Program-made: the position numbers and the translations under genes
The notes under the pieces: model-generated
Database searches by the model: none
What the model was told of the DNA's origin: nothing
The model's input: only the letters and a program-made list of their open reading frames with translations
In this document: positions 12,408-34,526 of the stretch, in pieces
Position numbering within the stretch: the stretch's first letter is position 1
Layout of the letters: each line of letters starts with the position of its first letter
Virus record (IMG/VR): IMGVR_UViG_3300045988_065855
Coordinates: 1-45,727 of that record
Reading direction: 5' to 3' (one strand)
From: a virus
DNA: 45,727 nucleotides

Positions 12408-12651
12408 CCTGCAACCCCTCCAGAACCTCCATGATTTCCTCTGTGGTGTACTTCTCGCCGTCATTTCCCCGCCACACATCATCCACCATGTAGTAAATCT
12501 TGCTGCTTACAATGTCGTCGCCGTCCCACTCGTAGATGCAAATTACGCAGGCATAACCTCTGCCGCAGGGCGGACTGAATTCAATGCCCGTTCCCTCGTG
12601 CTTTGCACTCAACACCAGATCAAGCAGCTTGTGCGCTGTCTCTCTGTCCAT
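12394..12651 (-). CDS. Hypothetical protein (85 aa)
   Basis: ATG 12651 with SD GGAGGA. Confidence 0.6.
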   Translation of the reverse strand: MDRETAHKLLDLVLSAKHEGTGIEFSPPCGRGYACVICIYEWDGDDIVSSKIYYMVDDVWRGNDGEKYTTEEIMEVLEGLQDAEH

Positions 12652-12700
12652 TGACTTTTCCTCCAATCCGTGATATACTTGCCTTGAACATTTATCTTTG

Positions 12701-12738
12701 CCGCCGAAACGGGATTGCACTCCCGCTCGGCGGTTTTT
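12701..12738 (+). terminator. Strong hairpin with a T-run on the + strand, inside a - strand operon
   Basis: CCGCCGA/TCGGCGG outer stem plus CGGGA/TCCCG inner stem, followed by TTTTTCTTTT on the + strand only. Confidence 0.45.
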
Positions 12739-12741
12739 CTT

Positions 12742-13371
12742 TTACTTGACTTCCTCCCACTTGAACCGCCCCTTCGAGCTGTTCCTCCACTGTCCGATGC
12801 CGCGCAGCGCGCCGTAGTCCAGCCACTCGCGCACCGCTTTTTCGTGTGCATCGTCCAAGCAGAGGATCGTCATTTCGCACGTCGTGCCCGCCGGGCATTC
12901 CTCGCTGCTGCTGAGTGCGGTTCTCTCGCCCTGCGCGGTCTGCGCACGCAGCGAACGCTGACAGATCGTGATTTCGCCCGGGGCATCGAGGCGAATGCGG
13001 CGCGGCTCGACGAAGATCAAACCGTCGATGACCTTCTTGTACGCCGTCAGCTTGCCGCTCTCGTTTACCGCCTTGCGCTTCTTGCCGGTCTCCGGGTCCT
13101 TGCCGCTGAGACGTGCCAGCATTCCGCAGGCGTCCTTGAAGAAACCCTTTATCTGGTAGTCCCAGAGAAAAGGCGTGCCGTCCTCGTCCTTGGGGAACAC
13201 GGTCGTGCCGCGCTCGATGATTGCATCCTCACCGAGTGCCGCGACTTCCTCCGGCAGTGTTGCCGCGTCCGGGCTCTTCGAGCCGATGAACCGGCTGTAG
13301 ATTTCCGGGTCTGCGGTTGCCGTGCCGAGAATGCCCTCGGTGAATGTCACGTGAATTTTCATCTTTTTCAT
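12742..13371 (-). CDS. Hypothetical early protein (209 aa), first gene of the recombination block
   Basis: ATG 13371 with SD AGGAGG. Protein-like composition. C-terminal GIGQWRNSSKGRF glycine-rich motif. No family recognised. Confidence 0.7.
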   Translation of the reverse strand: MKKMKIHVTFTEGILGTATADPEIYSRFIGSKSPDAATLPEEVAALGEDAIIERGTTVFPKDEDGTPFLWDYQIKGFFKDACGMLARLSGKDPETGKKRKAVNESGKLTAYKKVIDGLIFVEPRRIRLDAPGEITICQRSLRAQTAQGERTALSSSEECPAGTTCEMTILCLDDAHEKAVREWLDYGALRGIGQWRNSSKGRFKWEEVK

Positions 13372-13401
13372 GTTTTTTGTCCTCCTGTTGTTTCGTTCCT
13401 C

Positions 13402-13632
13402 TGCCGTTGCTAAGCTGTTCAGTGCTTCACTCCGCTTTGCCGTTGCTGTGCACATCTGCGCTGTGCCATGCCATCGCTCGGCTGTTCACTGTCTTGCTCT
13501 GCCGTTGCGTGTCTATGCCCTGCATTGCCTTGCAATGCTACGCCCTTGCTATGCTGCGCTTTGCCATGGCTATGCTGTGCACGTCCAAGCTATGCCCTTG
13601 CTCTGCTGCGCATTGCCTTGCCCTTGCGCGGC
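13402..13632. repeat. Array A of phased TGC (+) / GCA (-) triplets, period mostly 5 nt
   Basis: About 30 TGC triplets in ~230 nt, for example TGCCC TGCAT TGCCT TGCAA TGCTA at 13516-13540. The + strand is nearly A-free. Confidence 0.85.
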
Positions 13633-13772
13633 TAATCTCGTTTTGGCAGTACGCCGATTTTCTTAGCGCTTGCGTTCGGCTTCCTGCCGATCTTTTTCGA
13701 GTAAAGCGCCTCGCCGATCGTGCGTTTCTGCATCTCGCGGATTACGTTCCGCCGTTTTATTCCGTCGGTCAT
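13632..13772 (-). CDS. Small basic hypothetical protein (46 aa)
   Basis: Not in the track. ATG 13772 with a GAAAGGGG SD-like element. Product: MTDGIKRRNVIREMQKRTIGEALYSKKIGRKPNASAKKIGVLPKRD. Confidence 0.35.
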   Translation of the reverse strand: MTDGIKRRNVIREMQKRTIGEALYSKKIGRKPNASAKKIGVLPKRD

Positions 13773-13854
13773 TGCGTATCGCCCCTTTCCGCGCCCTCAG
13801 ACGGCGCGTGTCGCGTTTTCGCACCCCTCGGCATGTAATTTCATGCCTGAGTGC

Positions 13855-14016
13855 TTAGTGTCGCTCACAGCGCATCTGAGCGGCTTTCAGCAAAAGCGTC
13901 TTGCGCTTGTTCAGCTCGTCCTTGAGAACGCGGTGGTAGAATCCCCACCCGAACAGCAGCACGAGCTGCGCGAAAATGCAGGCGAGTACGCCGAAAAGTA
14001 CGGGGTTTATAATCAT
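13855..14016 (-). CDS. Small single-pass membrane protein (53 aa)
   Basis: Not in the track. ATG 14016 with SD AGGAGG at 7-nt spacing. TM helix MIINPVLFGVLACIFAQLVLLFGWGFY followed by a basic tail. Confidence 0.6.
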   Translation of the reverse strand: MIINPVLFGVLACIFAQLVLLFGWGFYHRVLKDELNKRKTLLLKAAQMRCERH

Positions 14017-14043
14017 GCTTTTTCCTCCTGTCGTGGTTTTCTT

Positions 14044-14071
14044 ACTAACCCGAACGGTAGTGAGGGTTAGT
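14044..14071. repeat. Perfect 8-bp inverted repeat ACTAACCC / GGGTTAGT with a 12-nt spacer
   Basis: Read directly at 14044-14051 and 14064-14071. Adjacent to the AT-rich block. Confidence 0.8.
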
Positions 14072-14090
14072 TCTTTCTTCTTGCTTTGTT

Positions 14091-14168
14091 AGAAATTAAA
14101 TTAATATATATTCGACCGTAGGGAGAATATATATATACTTCTTTTCTTTCTTTGGTACTTTCTTTCTT
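14091..14168. other. AT-rich block with a (TA)n run and CTTT repeats; candidate DNA unwinding element
   Basis: agaaattaaattaatatatattcg...gaatatatatatacttcttttctttctttggtactttctttctt stands out in a GC-rich genome. Confidence 0.5.
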
Positions 14169-14234
14169 ACGCCTCGGTTTGCCCTTGGACTGCCCTCGGT
14201 TTGCCCTTGGACTGCCCTCGGTTTGCCCTCAGAC
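14169..14234. repeat. Three tandem 22-bp repeats; TGCCC boxes phased every 11 bp (iteron-like)
   Basis: ACGCCTCGGTTTGCCCTTGGAC / TGCCCTCGGTTTGCCCTTGGAC / TGCCCTCGGTTTGCCCTCAGAC. TGCCC at 14180, 14191, 14202, 14213 and 14224. Confidence 0.85.
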
Positions 14235-14465
14235 GTTCCCGACGCGCCGCTTTGCAATGTCGCTTGCAACGTCGCCCAGGTAGTAGACAACCCGTCTTTC
14301 ACCGGGAACCCTCGGTGCACGAATAACCTTCTTTGCAGCCTTTCTGTCGCTCAAACCGTACACTTTCATGCACTGTTCGAGCGTTAAAAGCACCGCACCG
14401 CCGTACATCTGTATCAGGTCGTTTTTCACTTCCTGCCGCAGTTCCTTGTAGCTCCGTTCCTCCAT
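14229..14465 (-). CDS. Small putative DNA-binding protein (78 aa; excisionase-like is only a guess)
   Basis: ATG 14465 with SD AAGGAGGG. LTLEQCMKVYGLSDRKAAKKVI...RVVYYLGDVASDIAKRR is HTH-like. Confidence 0.6.
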   Translation of the reverse strand: MEERSYKELRQEVKNDLIQMYGGAVLLTLEQCMKVYGLSDRKAAKKVIRAPRVPGERRVVYYLGDVASDIAKRRVGNV

Positions 14466-14469
14466 GTTC

Positions 14470-14605
14470 TGCCCTCCTTTCGGTGTGCCCTTGCGCGGCA
14501 TTTCAACGCCTGTCTACGCTTTGCAATTCCGTTGCGTGTCTACGCTGTGCTATGCCGTTGCCGTGCTGCGCTCCGCAGAGCAATTCCATGCAATGCCCTT
14601 GCTGC
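14470..14605. repeat. Array B of phased TGC (+) / GCA (-) triplets
   Basis: 14 TGC triplets in ~136 nt. Shares the 14-mers TGCCCTTGCGCGGC (14486) and CCGTTGCGTGTCTA (14529) with array A. Confidence 0.8.
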
Positions 14606-14628
14606 GTCCTCTCCGCCCGTGGTATACT
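14599..14628 (+). promoter_or_regulatory. Sigma-70-type promoter with extended -10 for gene 14651..14980
   Basis: TTGCTG (14599-14604), 18-nt spacer, TGG-TATACT (14620-14628). Confidence 0.5.
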
Positions 14629-14650
14629 GGTTCGGAAAGGAGGTGGTCTC

Positions 14651-14980
14651 ATGCTTGATTTCGACTCTGTTTTCCTATCGCAGAACGAACTTGAAACGCT
14701 CCGCTCTGCGGACGCAGGAAAGGTTATAGATGCAACTCACGTTCCCGTGCCTGCGCTCCTGTCTTACGGTTTTCTGTCTCAATATCCGCTCAATAAAAAC
14801 CAGTATGTAATTACGCCTCTCGGCTGTGACTACTGCGAATACCTCGACAGGAAAGCCTTGGAGAAAAAGCGCCGCGAACGGAAAGAAAGTTTCCGTTTCT
14901 GGTTGCCCGTCATCCTGTCTAATGTCATGGCCCTTGCCGCGCTGATTATTTCAATAATCGCATTACGGAAAGCACAATAA
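14651..14980 (+). CDS. C-terminally membrane-anchored hypothetical protein (109 aa), convergent with cro
   Basis: ATG 14651 with SD AAGGAGG. C-terminal TM helix FWLPVILSNVMALAALIISIIAL. Confidence 0.7.
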   Translation: MLDFDSVFLSQNELETLRSADAGKVIDATHVPVPALLSYGFLSQYPLNKNQYVITPLGCDYCEYLDRKALEKKRRERKESFRFWLPVILSNVMALAALIISIIALRKAQ

Positions 14981-15038
14981 CGACGATCGACAGAACGATT
15001 GTCGGCGTGCAGACCAGCCACATCTTCCATGGCTTCAC
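14946..15038 (-). CDS. Possible 30-aa hydrophobic peptide downstream of cro
   Basis: GTG 15038 lies 8 nt after AAGGAGG. Product MKPWKMWLVCTPTIVLSIVVIVLSVMRLLK. Overlaps the 3' end of the convergent gene by 35 nt. Confidence 0.25.
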   Translation of the reverse strand: MKPWKMWLVCTPTIVLSIVVIVLSVMRLLK

Positions 15039-15051
15039 GTCCCTCACCTCC

Positions 15052-15264
15052 TTACGCGCCCCTGTCCTCGTGGTCGATACCCAGCAGGTAATCAGCCGAA
15101 CATCCAAGCATCCGCGCCATTAAGATAATCTTCGAACACGGAATATCTGTTTTGCTGTTCTGCCAGTTTCCATAAGTCTTTGCGGTAACTCCGATCGGCT
15201 TTACGAACTCCTCACGGGTTAAGCCTCTGCGGCCGCGTTCCGCCTCAATATTCGGAAATCGCAT
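15052..15264 (-). CDS. Cro-like XRE-family HTH regulator (70 aa)
   Basis: HTH_XRE pattern GLTREEFVKPIGVTAKTYGNWQNSKTDIP...ARMLGCSADYLLG. Divergent from the cI-like gene. Confidence 0.85.
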   Translation of the reverse strand: MRFPNIEAERGRRGLTREEFVKPIGVTAKTYGNWQNSKTDIPCSKIILMARMLGCSADYLLGIDHEDRGA

Positions 15265-15283
15265 TTTTTCATCACCTCCCGGT

Positions 15284-15413
15284 ATTCGTGTTTCACGAAT
15301 ATCATGGTTATAGTATATTCTTGTTTCTCGAATATGTCAAGAGAAAAACGGAAAATAATTTACGTGTTTTTCGAATATTGTTATTGACACCGCGCACGCA
15401 ACGAGCATATAAT
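15284..15413. promoter_or_regulatory. Genetic switch: three 16-bp operators and two divergent near-consensus promoters
   Basis: Operators C(G/T)TGTTT(C/T)(A/T)CGAATAT at 15287, 15320 and 15363. Rightward promoter: TTGACA 15384-89, 18 nt, TATAAT 15408-13. Leftward promoter: TTGACA (15340-35), 17 nt, TATACT (15317-12). Confidence 0.8.
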
Positions 15414-15439
15414 AAAGACAAGCAGGAAGGGGTGAAAAT

Positions 15440-15838
15440 ATGAATTACGACCGTATAAAAAAATTGCGCGAAAGCACGGGCATGAGTGCACGAAAATTTG
15501 CAGAAGCCATAGATATGAAATACACAACATACTATGGGTATGAAAACGGAGTAAGCGAACCGAACTCAGCTGTAATTGTTAAATTGTGCAGTTATTTCGG
15601 CTGTACCGCAGATTACTTGCTCGGTCTTGTCGACGAACCCTCGTCTCTTTACGAGAGCAAAAAAAAATCCCCCGCTCCGGCCGAAGCCGAAACAGGGGAA
15701 GTAACAAGAGAAATGTCTATCCAGTTGTTAAAGGCGCTCGGACTGCTCGATAAGTCCGGCAACCTTTCCGACGATGATCTCGCGTTTCTCGGTTACATTG
15801 TCGGACTGCTCGAATGGCGGTTCGGCGATCATTCTTAG
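15440..15838 (+). CDS. CI-like XRE-family repressor (132 aa)
   Basis: N-terminal HTH_XRE (MSARKFAEAIDMKYTTYYGYENG...CTADYLLG) plus a C-terminal extension. Same orientation as the integrase. Confidence 0.85.
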   Translation: MNYDRIKKLRESTGMSARKFAEAIDMKYTTYYGYENGVSEPNSAVIVKLCSYFGCTADYLLGLVDEPSSLYESKKKSPAPAEAETGEVTREMSIQLLKALGLLDKSGNLSDDDLAFLGYIVGLLEWRFGDHS

Positions 15839-17085: not shown

Positions 17086-17778
17086 ATGAAAAAAAGATTG
17101 GTAGCCGCAGCGGCGATGATGGCTGTCTTTGTTACAAGTACAGCCGCCGCCACCGCTTATAAAAGGTCGATTACCGCCGAATACGGAATTAAAGTGGAGA
17201 TTGACGGTCAGCAGACTGTTTTGACAGACGCAAACGGAAAGACCGTTGAACCATTCACCTATAACGGTACGACTTATGTTCCCATTCGTGCCGTTGCCGA
17301 AAACCTCGGTTGTTACGTCGGCTATGATGCAAGCACGCAGACCGCCATTGTCGATAACGATGCAATGGAAGCTGTCACAGTTGCACACAAAATCACAGTT
17401 GCGAGTGACGCGCTGATGATGGACATTGAACTCCTTTATTCCAAGTGTGATATGTATAGTGGTGGTTATGTTACCGCTCAGGACGCATCGTCGTCGATTG
17501 CAAACCTGTCGAGCAATATCGAAGGGAATTTTAATTACGCAAGCGCCGCATACATAGAAGCGCAGGACAATGAAAACACATATCTTGGAGAGTTAAAAGC
17601 CGCTTATACGAAGTTTCAGAAAGAATATGCCATTGCGGTTGACGCCGTATCGAGTGCAAAAAACTATGTGTCGACCAGAAACTCCCAGTACATCATAGAA
17701 GTAAACGAAGCTATGAGAACTTTTTCTTACTCGTCTGCAAGCATGGCGAATAAATTCATTGACGATATGTGGGCATAA
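17086..17778 (+). CDS. Secreted protein with a copper-amine-oxidase-N-like (stalk) domain (230 aa); lysogeny-module moron
   Basis: Signal peptide MKKRLVAAAAMMAVFVTSTAAATA. GTTYVPIRAVAENLG motif. SD AAGGAGG. Confidence 0.7.
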   Translation: MKKRLVAAAAMMAVFVTSTAAATAYKRSITAEYGIKVEIDGQQTVLTDANGKTVEPFTYNGTTYVPIRAVAENLGCYVGYDASTQTAIVDNDAMEAVTVAHKITVASDALMMDIELLYSKCDMYSGGYVTAQDASSSIANLSSNIEGNFNYASAAYIEAQDNENTYLGELKAAYTKFQKEYAIAVDAVSSAKNYVSTRNSQYIIEVNEAMRTFSYSSASMANKFIDDMWA

Positions 17779-17785
17779 ATAAAGC

Positions 17786-17824
17786 AAAAAAACCGCCCAC
17801 CGGAGGGCAATCCGGCAGGCGGTT
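17786..17824 (-). terminator. Hairpin with a T-run on the - strand (insulates int antisense read-through)
   Basis: AACCGCC...GGCGGTT outer stem with CCGG/CCGG inner stem. The A7 run on the + strand reads as T7 after the stem on the - strand. Confidence 0.5.
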
Positions 17825-17825
17825 C

Positions 17826-17866
17826 GAGGGTAGTACATTTGAGGAACGTTACTACCCTCTTATTAT
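17826..17866 (+). terminator. Hairpin and T-rich tail after the secreted-protein gene
   Basis: Perfect 10-bp stem GAGGGTAGTA / TACTACCCTC (17826-35 / 17850-59) followed by TTATTATA. Confidence 0.45.
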
Positions 17867-17891
17867 ACGACAAAATAGGAGGTTTTGCAAC

Positions 17892-18977
17892 ATGAAAAAA
17901 GCGAACACATCCGACGGATATTTCCGCGAGACGTTCACGTATCAGGGTAAGCGTTATTCTGTCCGCGCCAAGACAGAACGCGAACTCTGGCGGAAAGTTG
18001 ACGAGAAAAAACGCCGTCTTGAAGAAGGTGTAGACGTGGTGAACGAGAACACGAGAGCCGAAAAGTGGTTCACGGACTACATCGAGACTTACAAAAAGCC
18101 GAAGGTGCAGCCGACCACCTATTCCGACCTGTGCGGTTATATCAAGAACTACATCGCGCCGGAGATTGGTTCCATGCGGCTGAAAGAGGTTCGCGCCGTG
18201 CACTTGCAGCGCATTATGAACAGCGTTGCAGGCCGTTCCGCGTCCATGGCGTGCAAGCTGCGCGATCTTATCAAAGGCGCGTTCCGGCAGGCGCGTATTG
18301 ACCGTGTAATCGTTTACGACCCCTCAGAGGCACTGGTTATGCCGGAGACCAAAAACGGCACGCACAGGGCGATTACAGCCGAAGAGCGCCAGCATATTCT
18401 GCACGTTGCCGAGACGCACCGCGCCGGTCTCTGGGTGCTGTTCATGCTGTACACCGGTGCACGCCCGGACGAGACCAGGAAAGCGACATGGGACGATGTT
18501 CGCCGGAACGAACAAAAGATCATCCTGCACTCATCAAAGACGGATTTCGGTGACAGAGCCGTTCCCCTGCATCCGGCGCTTGCTCCTCTGCTGACCGGCG
18601 GCAAAGGTTACATCTTCACGCAGCCGACCACCGGCAAGCCGCACACAAAGCATTCCATGCGCCGCATGTGGGAGAGTTTCAAACGCGCCGTAGACATCGA
18701 CATGGGAGCACGCACTTTCAAAGGCGGTGTTATCCCGGAGACTTCAAAGGTAGCCGTGGACCTCACGCCCTACTGCTTGCGTCACACCTACGCAACCGAC
18801 CTGCAAACGGCAGGCGTGCCGATCAACGTTGCAAAGGACCTGCTGGGGCACAAGGAGATTTCGATGACAGCGCGTGTTTACACCCACCTGTCTGAGGAGG
18901 CGTTCGCCGCAGCGGTAGACAAGGTGGTTGCGCTGGACACCGCACGTCGCAGCGGAAAGATAGCCCAAATCAGGTGA
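17892..18977 (+). CDS. int: Tyrosine recombinase / phage integrase (361 aa)
   Basis: ATG 17892 with SD AGGAGG. C-terminal LRHTYATDLQTAGVPINVAKDLLGHKEISMTARVYTHL carries the H-x-x-R ... H ... Y catalytic pattern. Confidence 0.9.
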   Translation: MKKANTSDGYFRETFTYQGKRYSVRAKTERELWRKVDEKKRRLEEGVDVVNENTRAEKWFTDYIETYKKPKVQPTTYSDLCGYIKNYIAPEIGSMRLKEVRAVHLQRIMNSVAGRSASMACKLRDLIKGAFRQARIDRVIVYDPSEALVMPETKNGTHRAITAEERQHILHVAETHRAGLWVLFMLYTGARPDETRKATWDDVRRNEQKIILHSSKTDFGDRAVPLHPALAPLLTGGKGYIFTQPTTGKPHTKHSMRRMWESFKRAVDIDMGARTFKGGVIPETSKVAVDLTPYCLRHTYATDLQTAGVPINVAKDLLGHKEISMTARVYTHLSEEAFAAAVDKVVALDTARRSGKIAQIR

Positions 18978-32654: not shown

Positions 32655-34526
32655 TTAAATGTCGGCGGAAATAAAGGCGTATCCGCCAGTTGTATTATCA
32701 GACCTCTGTAAATAGCCATACCAATCTTGTGATGTAGCACTACTAAAAGTTACAAGCACGGACGCTTTAGTTGTGCCAACGTCAAGAATCGATATGTTTG
32801 ATATACCGAAAGCAGTTGTGTTTCCAGACATGGAGCGGACAATAACTCGATAGTTACTCACATCGTTAAAGCGAATTGACGGATATGTACGTTTTCTTTC
32901 GTATGGCAGAACAAATGTTGCGCTCGTAGCACCAGCTGGAATAAATGTAGCATTCGTAATAACAGGCGTATTTCCATCTTCTATTTTTTCTGCATAGTAC
33001 ATACATCTCCTCAACTGATCCCCGAAATCCGGGATTTCGTTCAATACCCAAACGCCGTTCTCCTTGTGCGCAAGGGTCTGCGTGTCGCCAAGTTCGAGCT
33101 TGGCGGCTTTGATAGAAAAACTTCCGGAACCTGTATTAAGCGACTGAATAACGATCTGATTTGCATCAATAGATGCGTCAGCAGGAATAGTACCTGTTAT
33201 TTCAGCGAGCGCCCAATCATCAGAAATCGGTGCTTGTTCGTTGAAAAAGTATTTACCAGCGCCCCATGAACAAACAAGGCGAATAGGGAGCCCAGTGGCT
33301 TTGTAAAGGCACGACAATGTGTAAATTGCACCCGGAATAAGGACATTATCCAGAAACGTGATCAAATTCCAACCCGCCACAGTGTAGGAAATGTTAAGTG
33401 CGCCGCCTTGAAGAGTTGCCACGACACCATCTGTAATTCTCCACCTATCCACCGTATACCCAACCGCCGTATACTCCGTCTGCCCTCTCTGGTTCACCGG
33501 TCTGCCGAAGTACCAGTTGTCGAGAAGATTCGGGTTTGTGCGGTATTTGAGGGCATCCGCTGCAAGCGCGAATCCATTCATCTGTGCAAGCGCCGCGTTA
33601 AATTGTGTTTCCGTGCCCTGATAGCCGCCGTCGAGCGCCGCTTCATACGCATCTTTGCCGTCGTTGCCAGGCACGCCCTGAATGCCCTGCACGCCCTGAA
33701 TGCCCTGCGGACCGGTGGGGCCCTGAATGCCCTGCACGCCCTGCGGACCCACTGGACCTTCAACCTTGCCGACGCTCACCCAGTCAAGCGCGTTTTCACT
33801 CCAGATGTAGCACTCGCGGTTCTCCTCGACCTGATACATCTTGTCGTTGCCGTTCGGGATAGCGTTTCGCAGTGCGGCGAGGGTGCTGTAAACGTCCTCG
33901 ATGTATAACGCCTTGCCGTCCTTGCCGTCTGCGCCCTTTTCGCCCTGTGCGCCCTGCGGACCCTGTGCGCCCTGTGCGCCGCGAATGCCCTGTGCGCCCT
34001 GCTCACCCTGAATGCCCTGCGGACCTCTCGGACCAATCTCGCCCTGCGGACCGCGTTCACCTCTGAGGCCCTGCTCACCTCTTTCGCCCTGGTCTCCCTT
34101 GTCGCCCTTGTTGCCCTGCGGACCGCGAACGCCGTGAACGACGGTTACGCCGTTTACGTCCTCAACTGAGCCCTCGGCAAACTGCATCCTGCTCCTCTGC
34201 GGCAGCACATTGCCGCCTGCGTCGAGGATAACGTGACCCGAACTTGCCGTTGCAAGCCATGTCGAGCCGTCAAGGCTGTATTCGATTGCCCCGTCGCTGT
34301 TGAGCCGCAGCCAGACGAGTGAGCCGTCATTGCACTTGATGCTGATCTCGTCGTTCGCGCTCAGTTCGTTTACAACGTCGATGGTCTCGTTGAGCTTGTC
34401 TCTCAGCAGCCGCGGCAGCTTGTCGAACACCGCCTTGTTTTCCGCAGCCGTGCCAGTCAGCGTGTCCGCCGCAGAAACAACGCCTGTCGAGCTTACCGCG
34501 CTGTCTGAAATCTTTTCGATTGCCAT
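32655..34526 (-). CDS. Tail fibre / receptor-binding protein with collagen-like Gly-X-Y repeats (623 aa)
   Basis: Two G-X-Y tracts ([19 protein letters not shown]...GADGKDGK and [22 protein letters not shown]...). The C-terminal ~250 codons are AT-rich. Confidence 0.8.

What the first reader, a model, noticed from the sequence alone, without database searches (positions are those of the whole stretch)
13402..14605. Two arrays of phased TGC/GCA triplets (about 5-nt period) in the leaders of early genes
Two tracts (13402-13632 and 14470-14605) are built from TGC triplets on the + strand, which read as GCA on the - strand, the sense strand of the flanking genes. The spacing is mostly 5 nt, with some 6, 10, 11 and 15. 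I count about 30 TGC in ~230 nt and 14 in ~136 nt, against roughly 3-4 and 2 expected for a random triplet. The cleanest run is TGCCC TGCAT TGCCT TGCAA TGCTA at 13516-13540. The + strand is almost free of A. The tracts share two identical 14-mers: TGCCCTTGCGCGGC at 13619 and 14486, and CCGTTGCGTGTCTA at 13502 and 14529. The 8-mer TGCCCTTG occurs at least six times between 13593 and 14601. Each tract sits just upstream, in the - sense, of a gene with a strong SD (starts 13371 and 14465). Triplets separated by 2-3 nt are laid out like the target of a ring-shaped or filament-forming RNA/ssDNA-binding protein; the TRAP protein binding 11 (G/U)AG triplets is the known analogy. The tracts could instead be dsDNA or ssDNA sites for a replication or recombination protein. 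I know of no described phage element of this form.
Basis: partly seen in the sequence, partly recalled or inferred. Interest (0 to 1): 0.75.

Follow-up and report, generated by a model that had tools for sequence, protein, structure and literature searches.

The report
Phage guide-RNA repeat arrays (VIPR-type)
The two TGC/GCA tracts are arrays of five-base repeats that belong with the adjacent small Cas7-like gene; together they match the VIPR phage system described in 2026 preprints, in which the repeat RNA guides a protein filament to silence rival phages.

Summary
Both tracts are the only places in the 45.7-kb window with strong periodicity, at 5.15 nt rather than 5. Neither signal is reached by any of 1000 dinucleotide shuffles.

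On the sense (-) strand the unit is GCA+NN. G and C are conserved among related phages (3-4% substitutions), while the NN positions are hypervariable (28-33%). A 6-nt unit (GCAaNg) recurs every 5-7 units, which gives the 5.15 average.

The gene just downstream (12742..13371, 209 aa) is predicted to be a Cas7-like RAMP protein with a glycine-rich loop, GIGQWRNSSKG (SGKG in the family consensus). In 117 of 128 related loci a tract of this kind lies within the 3-4 kb flank held, on the gene's strand, in nearly all cases directly next to the gene. Twelve related phages that lack the gene have no tract.

This matches VIPR systems (bioRxiv 10.64898/2026.04.26.720920 and .720927): a phage Vipr RAMP protein plus pentanucleotide-repeat vrRNAs. 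A blind GCANN scan also found GCA-type arrays next to clear homologues of the tested SUSP1 Vipr.

The TRAP-style leader regulation is not supported. No targets were found, and RNA expression was not tested.

The parts
13395..13640 (-). Repeat array 1 (vrRNA-like). It has 46 units of GCA+NN on the - strand, with a 6-nt unit (GCAaNg) every 4-8 units. It runs straight into the SD and ATG of the RAMP gene.
   Evidence: Segmentation. Spectral power 12.6 at 5.15 nt, reached by 0 of 1000 shuffles. NN positions are hypervariable among relatives. The same kind of tract lies upstream of the gene in L001-L032.
14466..14612 (-). Repeat array 2 (vrRNA-like). It has 28 units of the same type and orientation, 1.1 kb upstream of array 1, and runs into the SD of the 78-aa gene. 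It shares two 14-mers with array 1.
   Evidence: Segmentation. Power 6.3 at 5.15 nt, reached by 0 of 1000 shuffles. It is the second and only other periodic outlier in the window. Phages with a homologue of the 78-aa gene but no RAMP gene have no such tract.
12742..13371 (-). Vipr-like gene: a 209-aa single-domain RAMP (Cas7-like) protein. The C-terminal glycine-rich loop reads R-G-I-G-Q-W-R-N-S-S-K-G-R-F in the window protein (RNSGKGRF in the family consensus).
   Evidence: AlphaFold2 model, pLDDT 70. The top 50 Foldseek matches to the PDB listed are all CRISPR type III / type VII effector-complex chains or Cas7-11, with E down to 5e-8 and 146 hits at E<=1e-3. Family profile against PDB sequences: type VII Cas7 E 2.4e-4, Csm4 E 2.6e-3. 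hhalign against the SUSP1 Vipr family: E 5.9e-4 over 105 columns. No Pfam, PHROG or NCBIfam hit.
15312..15340 (-). Probable early (cro-side) promoter, TTGACA-17-TATACT. Its transcript would read through both arrays and the RAMP gene. This is inferred.
   Evidence: Consensus scan, 11 of 12 matches. It lies between the HTH cI-like gene (15440..15838 +) and the cro-like gene (15264..15052 -). No terminator-like site was found on the - strand between it and 12742.

Best explanation
The two tracts are arrays of guide-RNA repeats (vrRNA-like) of a VIPR-type system. Their protein partner is the adjacent 209-aa Cas7-like RAMP gene (12742..13371).

Proposed mechanism:
1. The arrays are transcribed on the - strand as part of the early operon. 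This is inferred.
2. The RAMP protein polymerises along the RNA, one protomer per 5-nt unit. It holds the conserved G-C-(A) bases and displays the two variable bases. This is inferred from the SUSP1 and P. fulva structures.
3. The displayed dinucleotides together read a double-stranded DNA target in a gapped register. Binding blocks transcription of a competing phage or prophage. This is inferred from the papers; no target was found here.

Shown here:
- The periodic architecture.
- Conserved-triplet and hypervariable-NN evolution.
- The RAMP fold prediction.
- Strict co-occurrence and shared orientation of array and gene across distant prophages.
- GCA-type arrays next to clear SUSP1-Vipr homologues.

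Particular to this clade: long continuous arrays without hairpin tails, punctuated every 5-7 units by a 6-nt unit (junction consensus GCAANGGCA). This gives blocks of 26, 31 or 36 nt and the 5.15-nt mean period.
For: Periodicity:
- Both tracts exceed all 1000 dinucleotide shuffles and are the only outliers in the window.

Conserved triplet and variable NN:
- Across 179 aligned pairs of tracts from 26 relatives, substitution rates are G 3.3%, C 4.2%, A 9.4%, N1 32.7% and N2 28.4%.

Protein partner:
- The top 50 Foldseek hits listed for the protein model are all CRISPR type III / type VII effector-complex chains or Cas7-11.
- The family profile hits type VII Cas7 and Csm4 sequences in the PDB.
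- The G-loop core G-Q-W-R aligns with SUSP1 Vipr G-D-W-R. In SUSP1, D177, W178 and R179 contact the conserved repeat bases.

Co-occurrence:
- 117 of 128 loci with a homologue (43-70% identity) carry a T-poor tract with a 5.15-nt period within the 3-4 kb flank held, on the gene's strand, in nearly all cases directly 3' or 5' of the gene.
- 70 non-redundant tracts peak at 5.155+-0.025 nt.
- None of the window's other neighbouring genes is conserved with the RAMP gene.
- 12 phages with the 78-aa gene but no RAMP gene have no tract; 2 that have the RAMP gene also have the tract.

Link to described VIPR systems:
- A blind GCANNx5 scan of IMG/VR returned 120 loci. Eight encode this family and 22 encode homologues of SUSP1 Vipr (E 7e-55 to 1e-6). 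In the five loci whose sequence was read, the arrays lie next to the gene. L118 and L146 have discrete GCANN vrRNAs with conserved hairpin tails; L158 has discrete GCANN arrays without such a hairpin tail.
- The VIPR papers describe phage RAMP plus YNNGG repeat vrRNAs. They report variant consensus forms (NNNGG, YNNNG, NNNNG) and staggered arrays without spacers.
Against: - No expression or processing data exist for these arrays.
- No DNA target was found. NN-coded searches with 0-3-nt skip rules against 1.8 Mb of held phage DNA gave nothing above permuted controls. Two exact IMG/VR scans gave 0 hits and one chance hit.
- Sequence homology to the tested SUSP1 Vipr is weak (hhalign probability 29%).
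- The structure model has only moderate confidence (pLDDT 70).
- The array lacks the discrete 9-16-repeat units with a 3' tail that define the tested type II vrRNAs. The 6-nt units have no counterpart in the text of the papers that I could read.
- No conserved accessory (vap) gene was found.
Confidence: 0.85

Rival explanations
1. The tracts are regulatory leaders. An oligomeric RNA-binding protein (TRAP-like, or the RAMP protein itself) coats the phased triplets in the 5' leaders of the early genes and controls their translation or termination. There is no guide function.
For: In this window both arrays run directly into the SD of the next gene, at 13371 and 14465. A bound filament would therefore occlude the ribosome-binding site. 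Autoregulation could coexist with a guide role.
Against: In most of the 117 loci with a tract the array lies 3' of the RAMP gene, not in a leader. The variable dinucleotides evolve about 8 times faster than the triplet, which a pure binding site does not need. No TRAP-family protein was found among the 20 ORFs between 5868 and 18977 that were scanned. The triplet is GCA, not (G/U)AG.
Confidence: 0.07
2. The tracts are double-stranded DNA sites. The motifs are phased at half a helical turn (2 x 5.15 = 10.3 bp) for a replication, partition or nucleoid protein, as part of an origin together with the iterons and AT-rich element at 14027-14229.
For: The period is non-integer and close to half of 10.3-10.5 bp. 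The tracts flank a conserved non-coding element with 11-bp iterons and an AT-rich palindrome.
Against: The 5.15 average is fully explained by 5-nt units plus a specific 6-nt unit every 5-7 units. Observed counts are 145, 167 and 93, against 49, 40 and 34 under a geometric model. There is no power at 10.3 nt. Strand asymmetry always follows the RAMP gene. The tracts track the RAMP gene, not the conserved element or the replication genes. The iteron sequence changes between lineages while the tract motif does not.
Confidence: 0.04
3. The tracts are non-functional low-complexity DNA, a pentanucleotide satellite made by slippage and duplication in intergenic spacers.
For: Internal duplications occur, for example about 100 nt in L012. 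Primary sequence turns over fast.
Against: Position-specific conservation of G and C against free NN. Regular 6-nt punctuation. Presence in 117 of 128 loci across 43-70% protein identity, and absence in RAMP-less relatives.
Confidence: 0.02

Closest known systems
VIPR (Viral Interference Programmable Repeat) systems: Vipr RAMP protein plus vrRNA. Sources: bioRxiv 10.64898/2026.04.26.720920 (PMC13142463) and 10.64898/2026.04.26.720927. Tested examples are Escherichia phage SUSP1 and a Pseudomonas fulva prophage (type II).
   Same: - Phage or prophage location and a minimal locus.
- A small (about 20 kDa) single-RRM RAMP with a G-loop containing W-R.
- Flanking intergenic arrays of pentanucleotide repeats with a conserved triplet and a hypervariable dinucleotide.
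- Arrays upstream and/or downstream of the gene, on its strand.
- No CRISPR array and no Cas1/Cas2.
   Different: - The conserved triplet is G-C-(A) rather than G-G-Y. This fits the paper's 'YNNNG' variant, and GCA arrays also occur next to close SUSP1-Vipr homologues (L118, L146, L158).
- The arrays are long and continuous (28 and 46 units here, up to 900 nt in relatives). They lack the 3' hairpin or pseudoknot tail and are punctuated by a 6-nt unit every 5-7 units.
- No conserved vap gene.
- No target identified.
- Protein sequence similarity to SUSP1 Vipr is marginal.
Class 1 CRISPR-Cas backbone proteins (Cas7 family: Csm3, Cmr4, type VII Cas7) on crRNA
   Same: Predicted fold, glycine-rich loop and thumb. 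The protein polymerises along a guide RNA at a fixed nucleotide step.
   Different: No repeat-spacer CRISPR array and no other cas genes. The step is 5 nt (sometimes 6) with sequence-specific triplets, instead of 6 nt with a sequence-independent backbone grip. The setting is a prophage early operon.
TRAP (MtrB) binding to 11 (G/U)AG triplets in the Bacillus trp leader
   Same: Phased triplets separated by 2-3 nt and bound by a homo-oligomer, one subunit per triplet.
   Different: TRAP is a closed 11-12-mer ring of about 75-aa subunits that acts on one leader for attenuation. Here the partner is a RAMP filament. The array has 28-46 or more units, its spacers are the fast-evolving part, and its position relative to genes is not fixed.

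Membership tests
VIPR system | Vipr protein: a small single-RRM RAMP homologue with a glycine-rich loop and a thumb | tested here: met
   209 aa. AF2 model gives Cas7/Csm3/Cmr4/type VII Cas7 matches (E 5e-8, TM about 0.5, 146 hits at E<=1e-3). Profile hits to type VII Cas7 and Csm4 sequences. In the G-loop, G191, G193, Q194, W195, R196 and G201 are invariant. The model is only of moderate confidence (pLDDT 70).
VIPR system | Detectable homology to an experimentally characterised Vipr (SUSP1, KT454805.2 28474..29061) | tested here: inconclusive
   hhalign of family profiles gives E 5.9e-4, probability 29%, over 105 collinear columns of the C-terminal half. The G-loop GIGQWR..GRF aligns with GVGDWR..GRF. 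The papers themselves say RAMPs lack usable sequence similarity.
VIPR system | Tandem pentanucleotide repeats in intergenic DNA flanking the gene, with a conserved triplet alternating with hypervariable NN | tested here: met
   Unit consensus is G 92%, C 67%, A 50%, then N N. Substitution rates are 3-4% at G and C against 28-33% at NN. The triplet is GCA, not GGY. This variant is also seen beside strong SUSP1-Vipr homologues and fits the 'YNNNG' class named in the paper.
VIPR system | Array and vipr gene form one unit (co-occurrence, same strand) | tested here: met
   117 of 128 homologous loci have an adjacent tract that is T-poor on the gene's strand. 12 related phages without the gene have no tract. 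No other neighbouring gene is conserved with it.
VIPR system | Phage or prophage context without a CRISPR array or adaptation genes | tested here: met
   Integrase, cI/cro pair, recombination and replication genes, and what are presumed to be structural genes from ORF size and order on the - strand (not scanned). No CRISPR-like repeat-spacer array in the tandem-repeat output. No Rfam hit in 12500-15600.
VIPR system | Discrete vrRNAs of 9-16 repeats capped by a conserved structured 3' tail (type II definition) | tested here: not met
   The arrays are continuous (46 and 28 units) and end at the next gene's SD. No conserved hairpin tail and no hammerhead were found. They are punctuated by 6-nt units every 5-7 units instead. 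The paper mentions 'staggered arrays' without spacers for other types, but I could not see that figure.
VIPR system | vrRNA is expressed and co-purifies with Vipr | not testable with these tools
   Needs small-RNA sequencing and pull-down.
VIPR system | The NN dinucleotides specify a dsDNA target with a 1-nt skip; natural targets lie in competing phages | tested here: inconclusive
   No enrichment for any skip rule over permuted guides in 1.8 Mb of held phage DNA. Two exact 20-base IMG/VR scans gave 0 hits and one chance hit whose flanks do not match. vrRNA boundaries and the handling of 6-nt units are unknown, and the database was small.
VIPR system | Accessory vap gene next to vipr | tested here: not met
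   None of the window's neighbours (108-aa ORF, exonuclease, NinB-like, 78-aa, 53-aa and 46-aa ORFs) is conserved with the gene in distant loci. The paper says loci 'typically' have a vap gene, so this is not strictly required.
TRAP / trp-leader type attenuation | MtrB-family ring protein and 9-11 (G/U)AG triplets in one leader | tested here: not met
   No TRAP-family Pfam hit in any of the 20 ORFs scanned between 5868 and 18977. The triplet is GCA. The arrays have 28-46 units and lie 3' of the gene in most relatives.
CRISPR-Cas | Repeat-spacer array (23-47-nt direct repeats with unique spacers) plus cas operon | tested here: not met
   No such array in the window. There is a single RAMP gene only.
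Iteron-type replication origin | Directly repeated 17-22-bp dsDNA sites for an initiator next to an AT-rich region | tested here: not met
   This is not met for the two tracts: there is no repeat at that length and no 10-11-nt power. A separate feature at 14172-14229 (five 11-nt repeats beside an AT-rich palindrome) does look like this. It is not part of the arrays.

The most novel reading that the evidence does not exclude
This very large clade from gut Clostridia prophages (more than 7,700 proteins in the search; hosts include Faecalibacterium, Oscillospiraceae and Lachnospiraceae) may be a VIPR variant not covered by the seven published types. Its features are GCA/NN units, no tail and no vap gene, and long arrays built from blocks of about 31 nt (5-7 units) joined by a conserved GCAANGGCA junction. 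The extra nucleotide roughly once per six protomers coincides with the six-subunit helical turn reported for the free Vipr-vrRNA filament. It could therefore mark processing sites or a once-per-turn register shift, which would imply a modified reading code.
Probability: 0.3. Interest if true: 0.65.

Novelty: new member of a known kind. Interest (0 to 1): 0.55.

Why it matters
VIPR was described only in 2026 preprints, as a phage-borne, pre-CRISPR way of reading DNA with a gapped RNA code. This locus shows that the same logic is very common in prophages of human-gut Clostridia. Its repeat consensus is different, GCA instead of GGY. Its arrays also have a regular 6-nt punctuation that I did not find in the parts of the two papers I read. 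That gives a concrete, abundant clade in which to test how array RNAs are processed, whether the code tolerates 6-nt units, and which gut phages fight each other. In practice, a simple 5.15-nt periodicity scan found the arrays in 117 of 128 loci and could be used for annotation.

Tried and rejected
- RNA structure. Folding of both leaders gave z-scores of -2.2 and -1.6, neither strikingly structured nor unstructured, so it was uninformative.
- Rfam at E<=1 on 12500-15600 gave nothing, so there is no hammerhead and no known leader.
- Pfam, PHROG and NCBIfam scans and a PDB sequence search with the single 209-aa protein gave nothing. Only the fold search and a diverse profile revealed the RAMP relationship.
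- Ideas considered and dropped: sigma-54 promoter arrays (TGGCAC-N5-TTGCA has GCA at 11-nt spacing), primase recognition sites (SP6 GCA), Chi-like clusters, Rho or Hfq or CsrA sponges, DnaA-trios, and R-loop origins. None explains the gene linkage, the strand rule or the hypervariable NN.
- Half-helical-turn dsDNA phasing looked attractive from the 5.15 period. It was dropped once the 6-nt punctuation explained the non-integer value.
- Neighbouring genes as accessory partners: not conserved with the RAMP gene.
- Target prediction with 0-3-nt skip rules and three ways of treating 6-nt units: no signal. Exact IMG/VR scans: no target.
- Variable-gap patterns could not be used, because the tool needs four plain leading bases.
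- The held supplement text has no accession lists, so I could not check whether this family is among the paper's 667 systems.
Full report
**1. Context**

The window is a temperate phage or prophage.
- Integrase lies at 17769..18977 (+).
- A cI-like HTH repressor lies at 15440..15838 (+) and a cro-like HTH gene at 15264..15052 (-). Near-consensus divergent promoters sit between them.
- The - strand then carries an early operon with an exonuclease, a NinB/Orf-like protein, an HNH endonuclease, SSB and a DnaD/O-like loader.
- Homologues of the gene next to tract 1 come from Faecalibacterium, Oscillospiraceae, Lachnospiraceae and other Clostridia.

**2. The observation**

Every stated fact holds. 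This covers the TGC counts, the A-poor + strand, the shared 14-mers, the TGCCCTTG copies and the SD sites.

Two refinements are needed:
- TGC is twice as common in this window as 1/64, so the expected counts are 7.7 and 4.5. The TGC count is also reproduced by dinucleotide shuffles.
- The phasing is the exceptional feature. There are 16 and 6 adjacent 5/6-nt spacings, against 5.6+-2.1 and 1.8+-1.3 expected. Spectral power is 12.6 and 6.3 at 5.15 nt, and 0 of 1000 shuffles reach either value.

A sliding scan shows these as the only periodic regions in 45.7 kb.

**3. Conservation**

The gene downstream of tract 1 (12742..13371, 209 aa) has 556 relatives in IMG/VR.
- In L001-L032 the same T-poor GCA tract precedes the gene, although its DNA barely aligns.
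- In 128 loci with homologues of 43-70% identity, 117 carry a 5.15-nt periodic tract on the gene's strand. In nearly all of them it directly adjoins the gene, most often starting at its stop codon.
- 70 non-redundant tracts peak at 5.155+-0.025 nt, with no sub-harmonics.
- None of the window's other neighbouring genes is conserved with this gene.
- Twelve phages that share the 78-aa gene but lack the 209-aa gene have no periodic tract anywhere in 8 kb. Two that have the gene also have the tract.

Both tracts therefore belong to the 209-aa gene, not to 'early leaders' as such.

**4. Anatomy of the arrays**

On the - strand, tract 1 parses into 46 units and tract 2 into 28 units.
- The unit is G(92%) C(67%) A(50%) N N.
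- Among 179 aligned pairs of related tracts, G and C change in 3-4% of cells, A in 9%, and the two N positions in 33% and 28%.
- A 6-nt unit (GCA-A-N-G, with its last G conserved) recurs every 5, 6 or 7 units. Counts are 145, 167 and 93, against 49, 40 and 34 under a geometric model.
- This gives blocks of 26, 31 or 36 nt, a junction consensus GCAANGGCA, and the non-integer mean of 5.16 nt.

**5. The protein**

Single-sequence searches find nothing.
- An AlphaFold2 model (pLDDT 70) matches CRISPR backbone RAMPs: type VII Cas7, Csm3, Cmr4 and Cas7-11. E values go down to 5e-8, with 146 hits at E<=1e-3.
- A diverse family profile hits type VII Cas7 (E 2.4e-4) and Csm4 (E 2.6e-3) sequences in the PDB.
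- The C-terminus carries a G-loop whose glycines and Q-W-R core are invariant. It reads GIGQWRNSSKG in the window protein and GQWRNSGKG in the family consensus.

**6. What is known**

A literature search led to two 2026 preprints on VIPR systems. They report:
- a phage-encoded minimal RAMP called Vipr (about 20 kDa), flanked by intergenic arrays;
- vrRNAs of 9-16 YNNGG repeats (GGY conserved, NN hypervariable) with a 3' tail;
- one protomer per repeat, with G-loop residues D177, W178 and R179 and the thumb holding the triplet;
- NN dinucleotides that read dsDNA with a 1-nt skip and repress competing phages;
- seven types, with variant consensus forms (NNNGG, YNNNG, NNNNG), staggered arrays and ribozyme-interspersed arrays.

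I located SUSP1 vipr at KT454805.2 28474..29061. Its G-loop is CGVGDWRPRFGRF and its arrays are strict GGTnn repeats. Profile-profile alignment to our family is weak but collinear: E 5.9e-4 over 105 columns, aligning GQWR with GDWR.

There is an independent bridge. A blind scan for GCANNx5 in IMG/VR returned 120 loci.
- Eight encode our family.
- 22 encode homologues of SUSP1 Vipr, with E from 7e-55 to 1e-6.
- In L118 and L146 the arrays are discrete GCANN vrRNAs with conserved hairpin tails. L158 has discrete GCANN arrays but no such hairpin tail.

GCA/NN is therefore a repeat type used next to clear Vipr homologues.

**7. Mechanism**

The papers support the RNP and DNA-targeting steps.

Shown here:
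- gene-array coupling;
- the RAMP fold;
- the conserved/variable repeat code.

Inferred:
- transcription from the cro-side promoter;
- filament assembly;
- gapped DNA recognition;
- silencing of rival phages.

Unknown:
- how the long arrays are processed;
- what the 6-nt units do;
- what the targets are.

My target searches were negative or at chance, with a small database and unknown guide boundaries.

**8. Rivals**

- A pure leader-regulation model fails because the array is usually 3' of the gene.
- A dsDNA phasing or origin model fails on the punctuation, the strand rule and the linkage.
- A slippage satellite fails on position-specific conservation.

Autoregulation by occlusion of the SD at 13371 remains possible as a side effect in this particular phage.

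**9. Verdict**

The TRAP-style function is not supported. The element is a VIPR-type locus, a kind described only months ago. Its clade-specific features (GCA triplet, tail-less punctuated arrays, no vap gene) may or may not fall within the published types.

Noticed in passing
window 14027-14229: A non-coding element that stays 87-93% identical in relatives where the surrounding DNA no longer aligns. It contains AAGAAAG purine runs, an AT-rich palindrome (GTATATATATATTC-11 nt-GAATATATAT) and a GC hairpin (CTAACCC..GGGTTAG). It is preceded by five 11-nt repeats whose sequence differs between lineages: GGGCAnnCCnA here, (A/T)AACAnnCCnnn in L021-L029. It looks like an origin or a regulated promoter with lineage-specific binding sites. 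It is not part of the repeat arrays.
   Followed up: partly
L029:3160-3200 versus L021, L022, L024, L028: The loop of the GC hairpin in that conserved element is inverted in L029 (GAACGTAGTGAG instead of TCACTACGTTCG) while the stem is kept. The whole palindrome has flipped.
   Followed up: no
window 14600-14980 (+): A 109-aa protein with a C-terminal transmembrane segment (14651..14980) is encoded on the opposite strand between cro and array 2. It has its own extended -10 promoter (TTGCTG-18-TGgTATACT) whose -35 overlaps the end of array 2. It looks like a lysogen-expressed moron, convergent with early transcription.
   Followed up: no
window 13632-13772 (-): A 46-aa basic ORF (MTDGIKRRNVIREMQKRTIGEALYSKKIGRKPNASAKKIGVLPKRD) lies directly upstream of array 1. 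It is conserved in 22 of 31 close relatives but not in distant loci. It may be a small DNA-binding protein and is the only candidate for a local accessory factor.
   Followed up: partly
L118 (- strand 560-1100), L146 (- strand 400-1100), L158 (1150-1950): IMG/VR contigs with close homologues of SUSP1 Vipr (E 1e-38 to 1e-55). Their vrRNA units use GCA+NN repeats (about 8-12 per unit) rather than GGY+NN. In L118 and L146 each unit is followed by a conserved hairpin tail.
   Followed up: partly
L182:815-2853: An array of about 1.2 kb with 185 GCA triplets, at a period of about 4.95 nt. It lies directly after an ORF with weak similarity to the SUSP1 Vipr profile (E 5e-7). It is the longest array seen.
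   Followed up: no
L273, L251, L270, L314 (upstream of the RAMP gene): In some distant members the dominant phased triplet is not GCA but GAA, GGA, GGT or AGC, while the 5.15-nt period is kept. The conserved bases of the unit drift between lineages.
   Followed up: partly
window 33671-34158 (-, inside ORF 32655..34526): Runs of 9-nt and 27-nt tandem repeats (GCCCTGNNN on the + strand) inside a 623-aa ORF. They are likely a collagen-like Gly-X-Y region of a tail fibre.
   Followed up: no
L204:1083-1500: A T-free array (cagcgaaGCAagGCA...) next to a sequence that looks like a contig end. No RAMP gene was detected within the stretch held.
   Followed up: no
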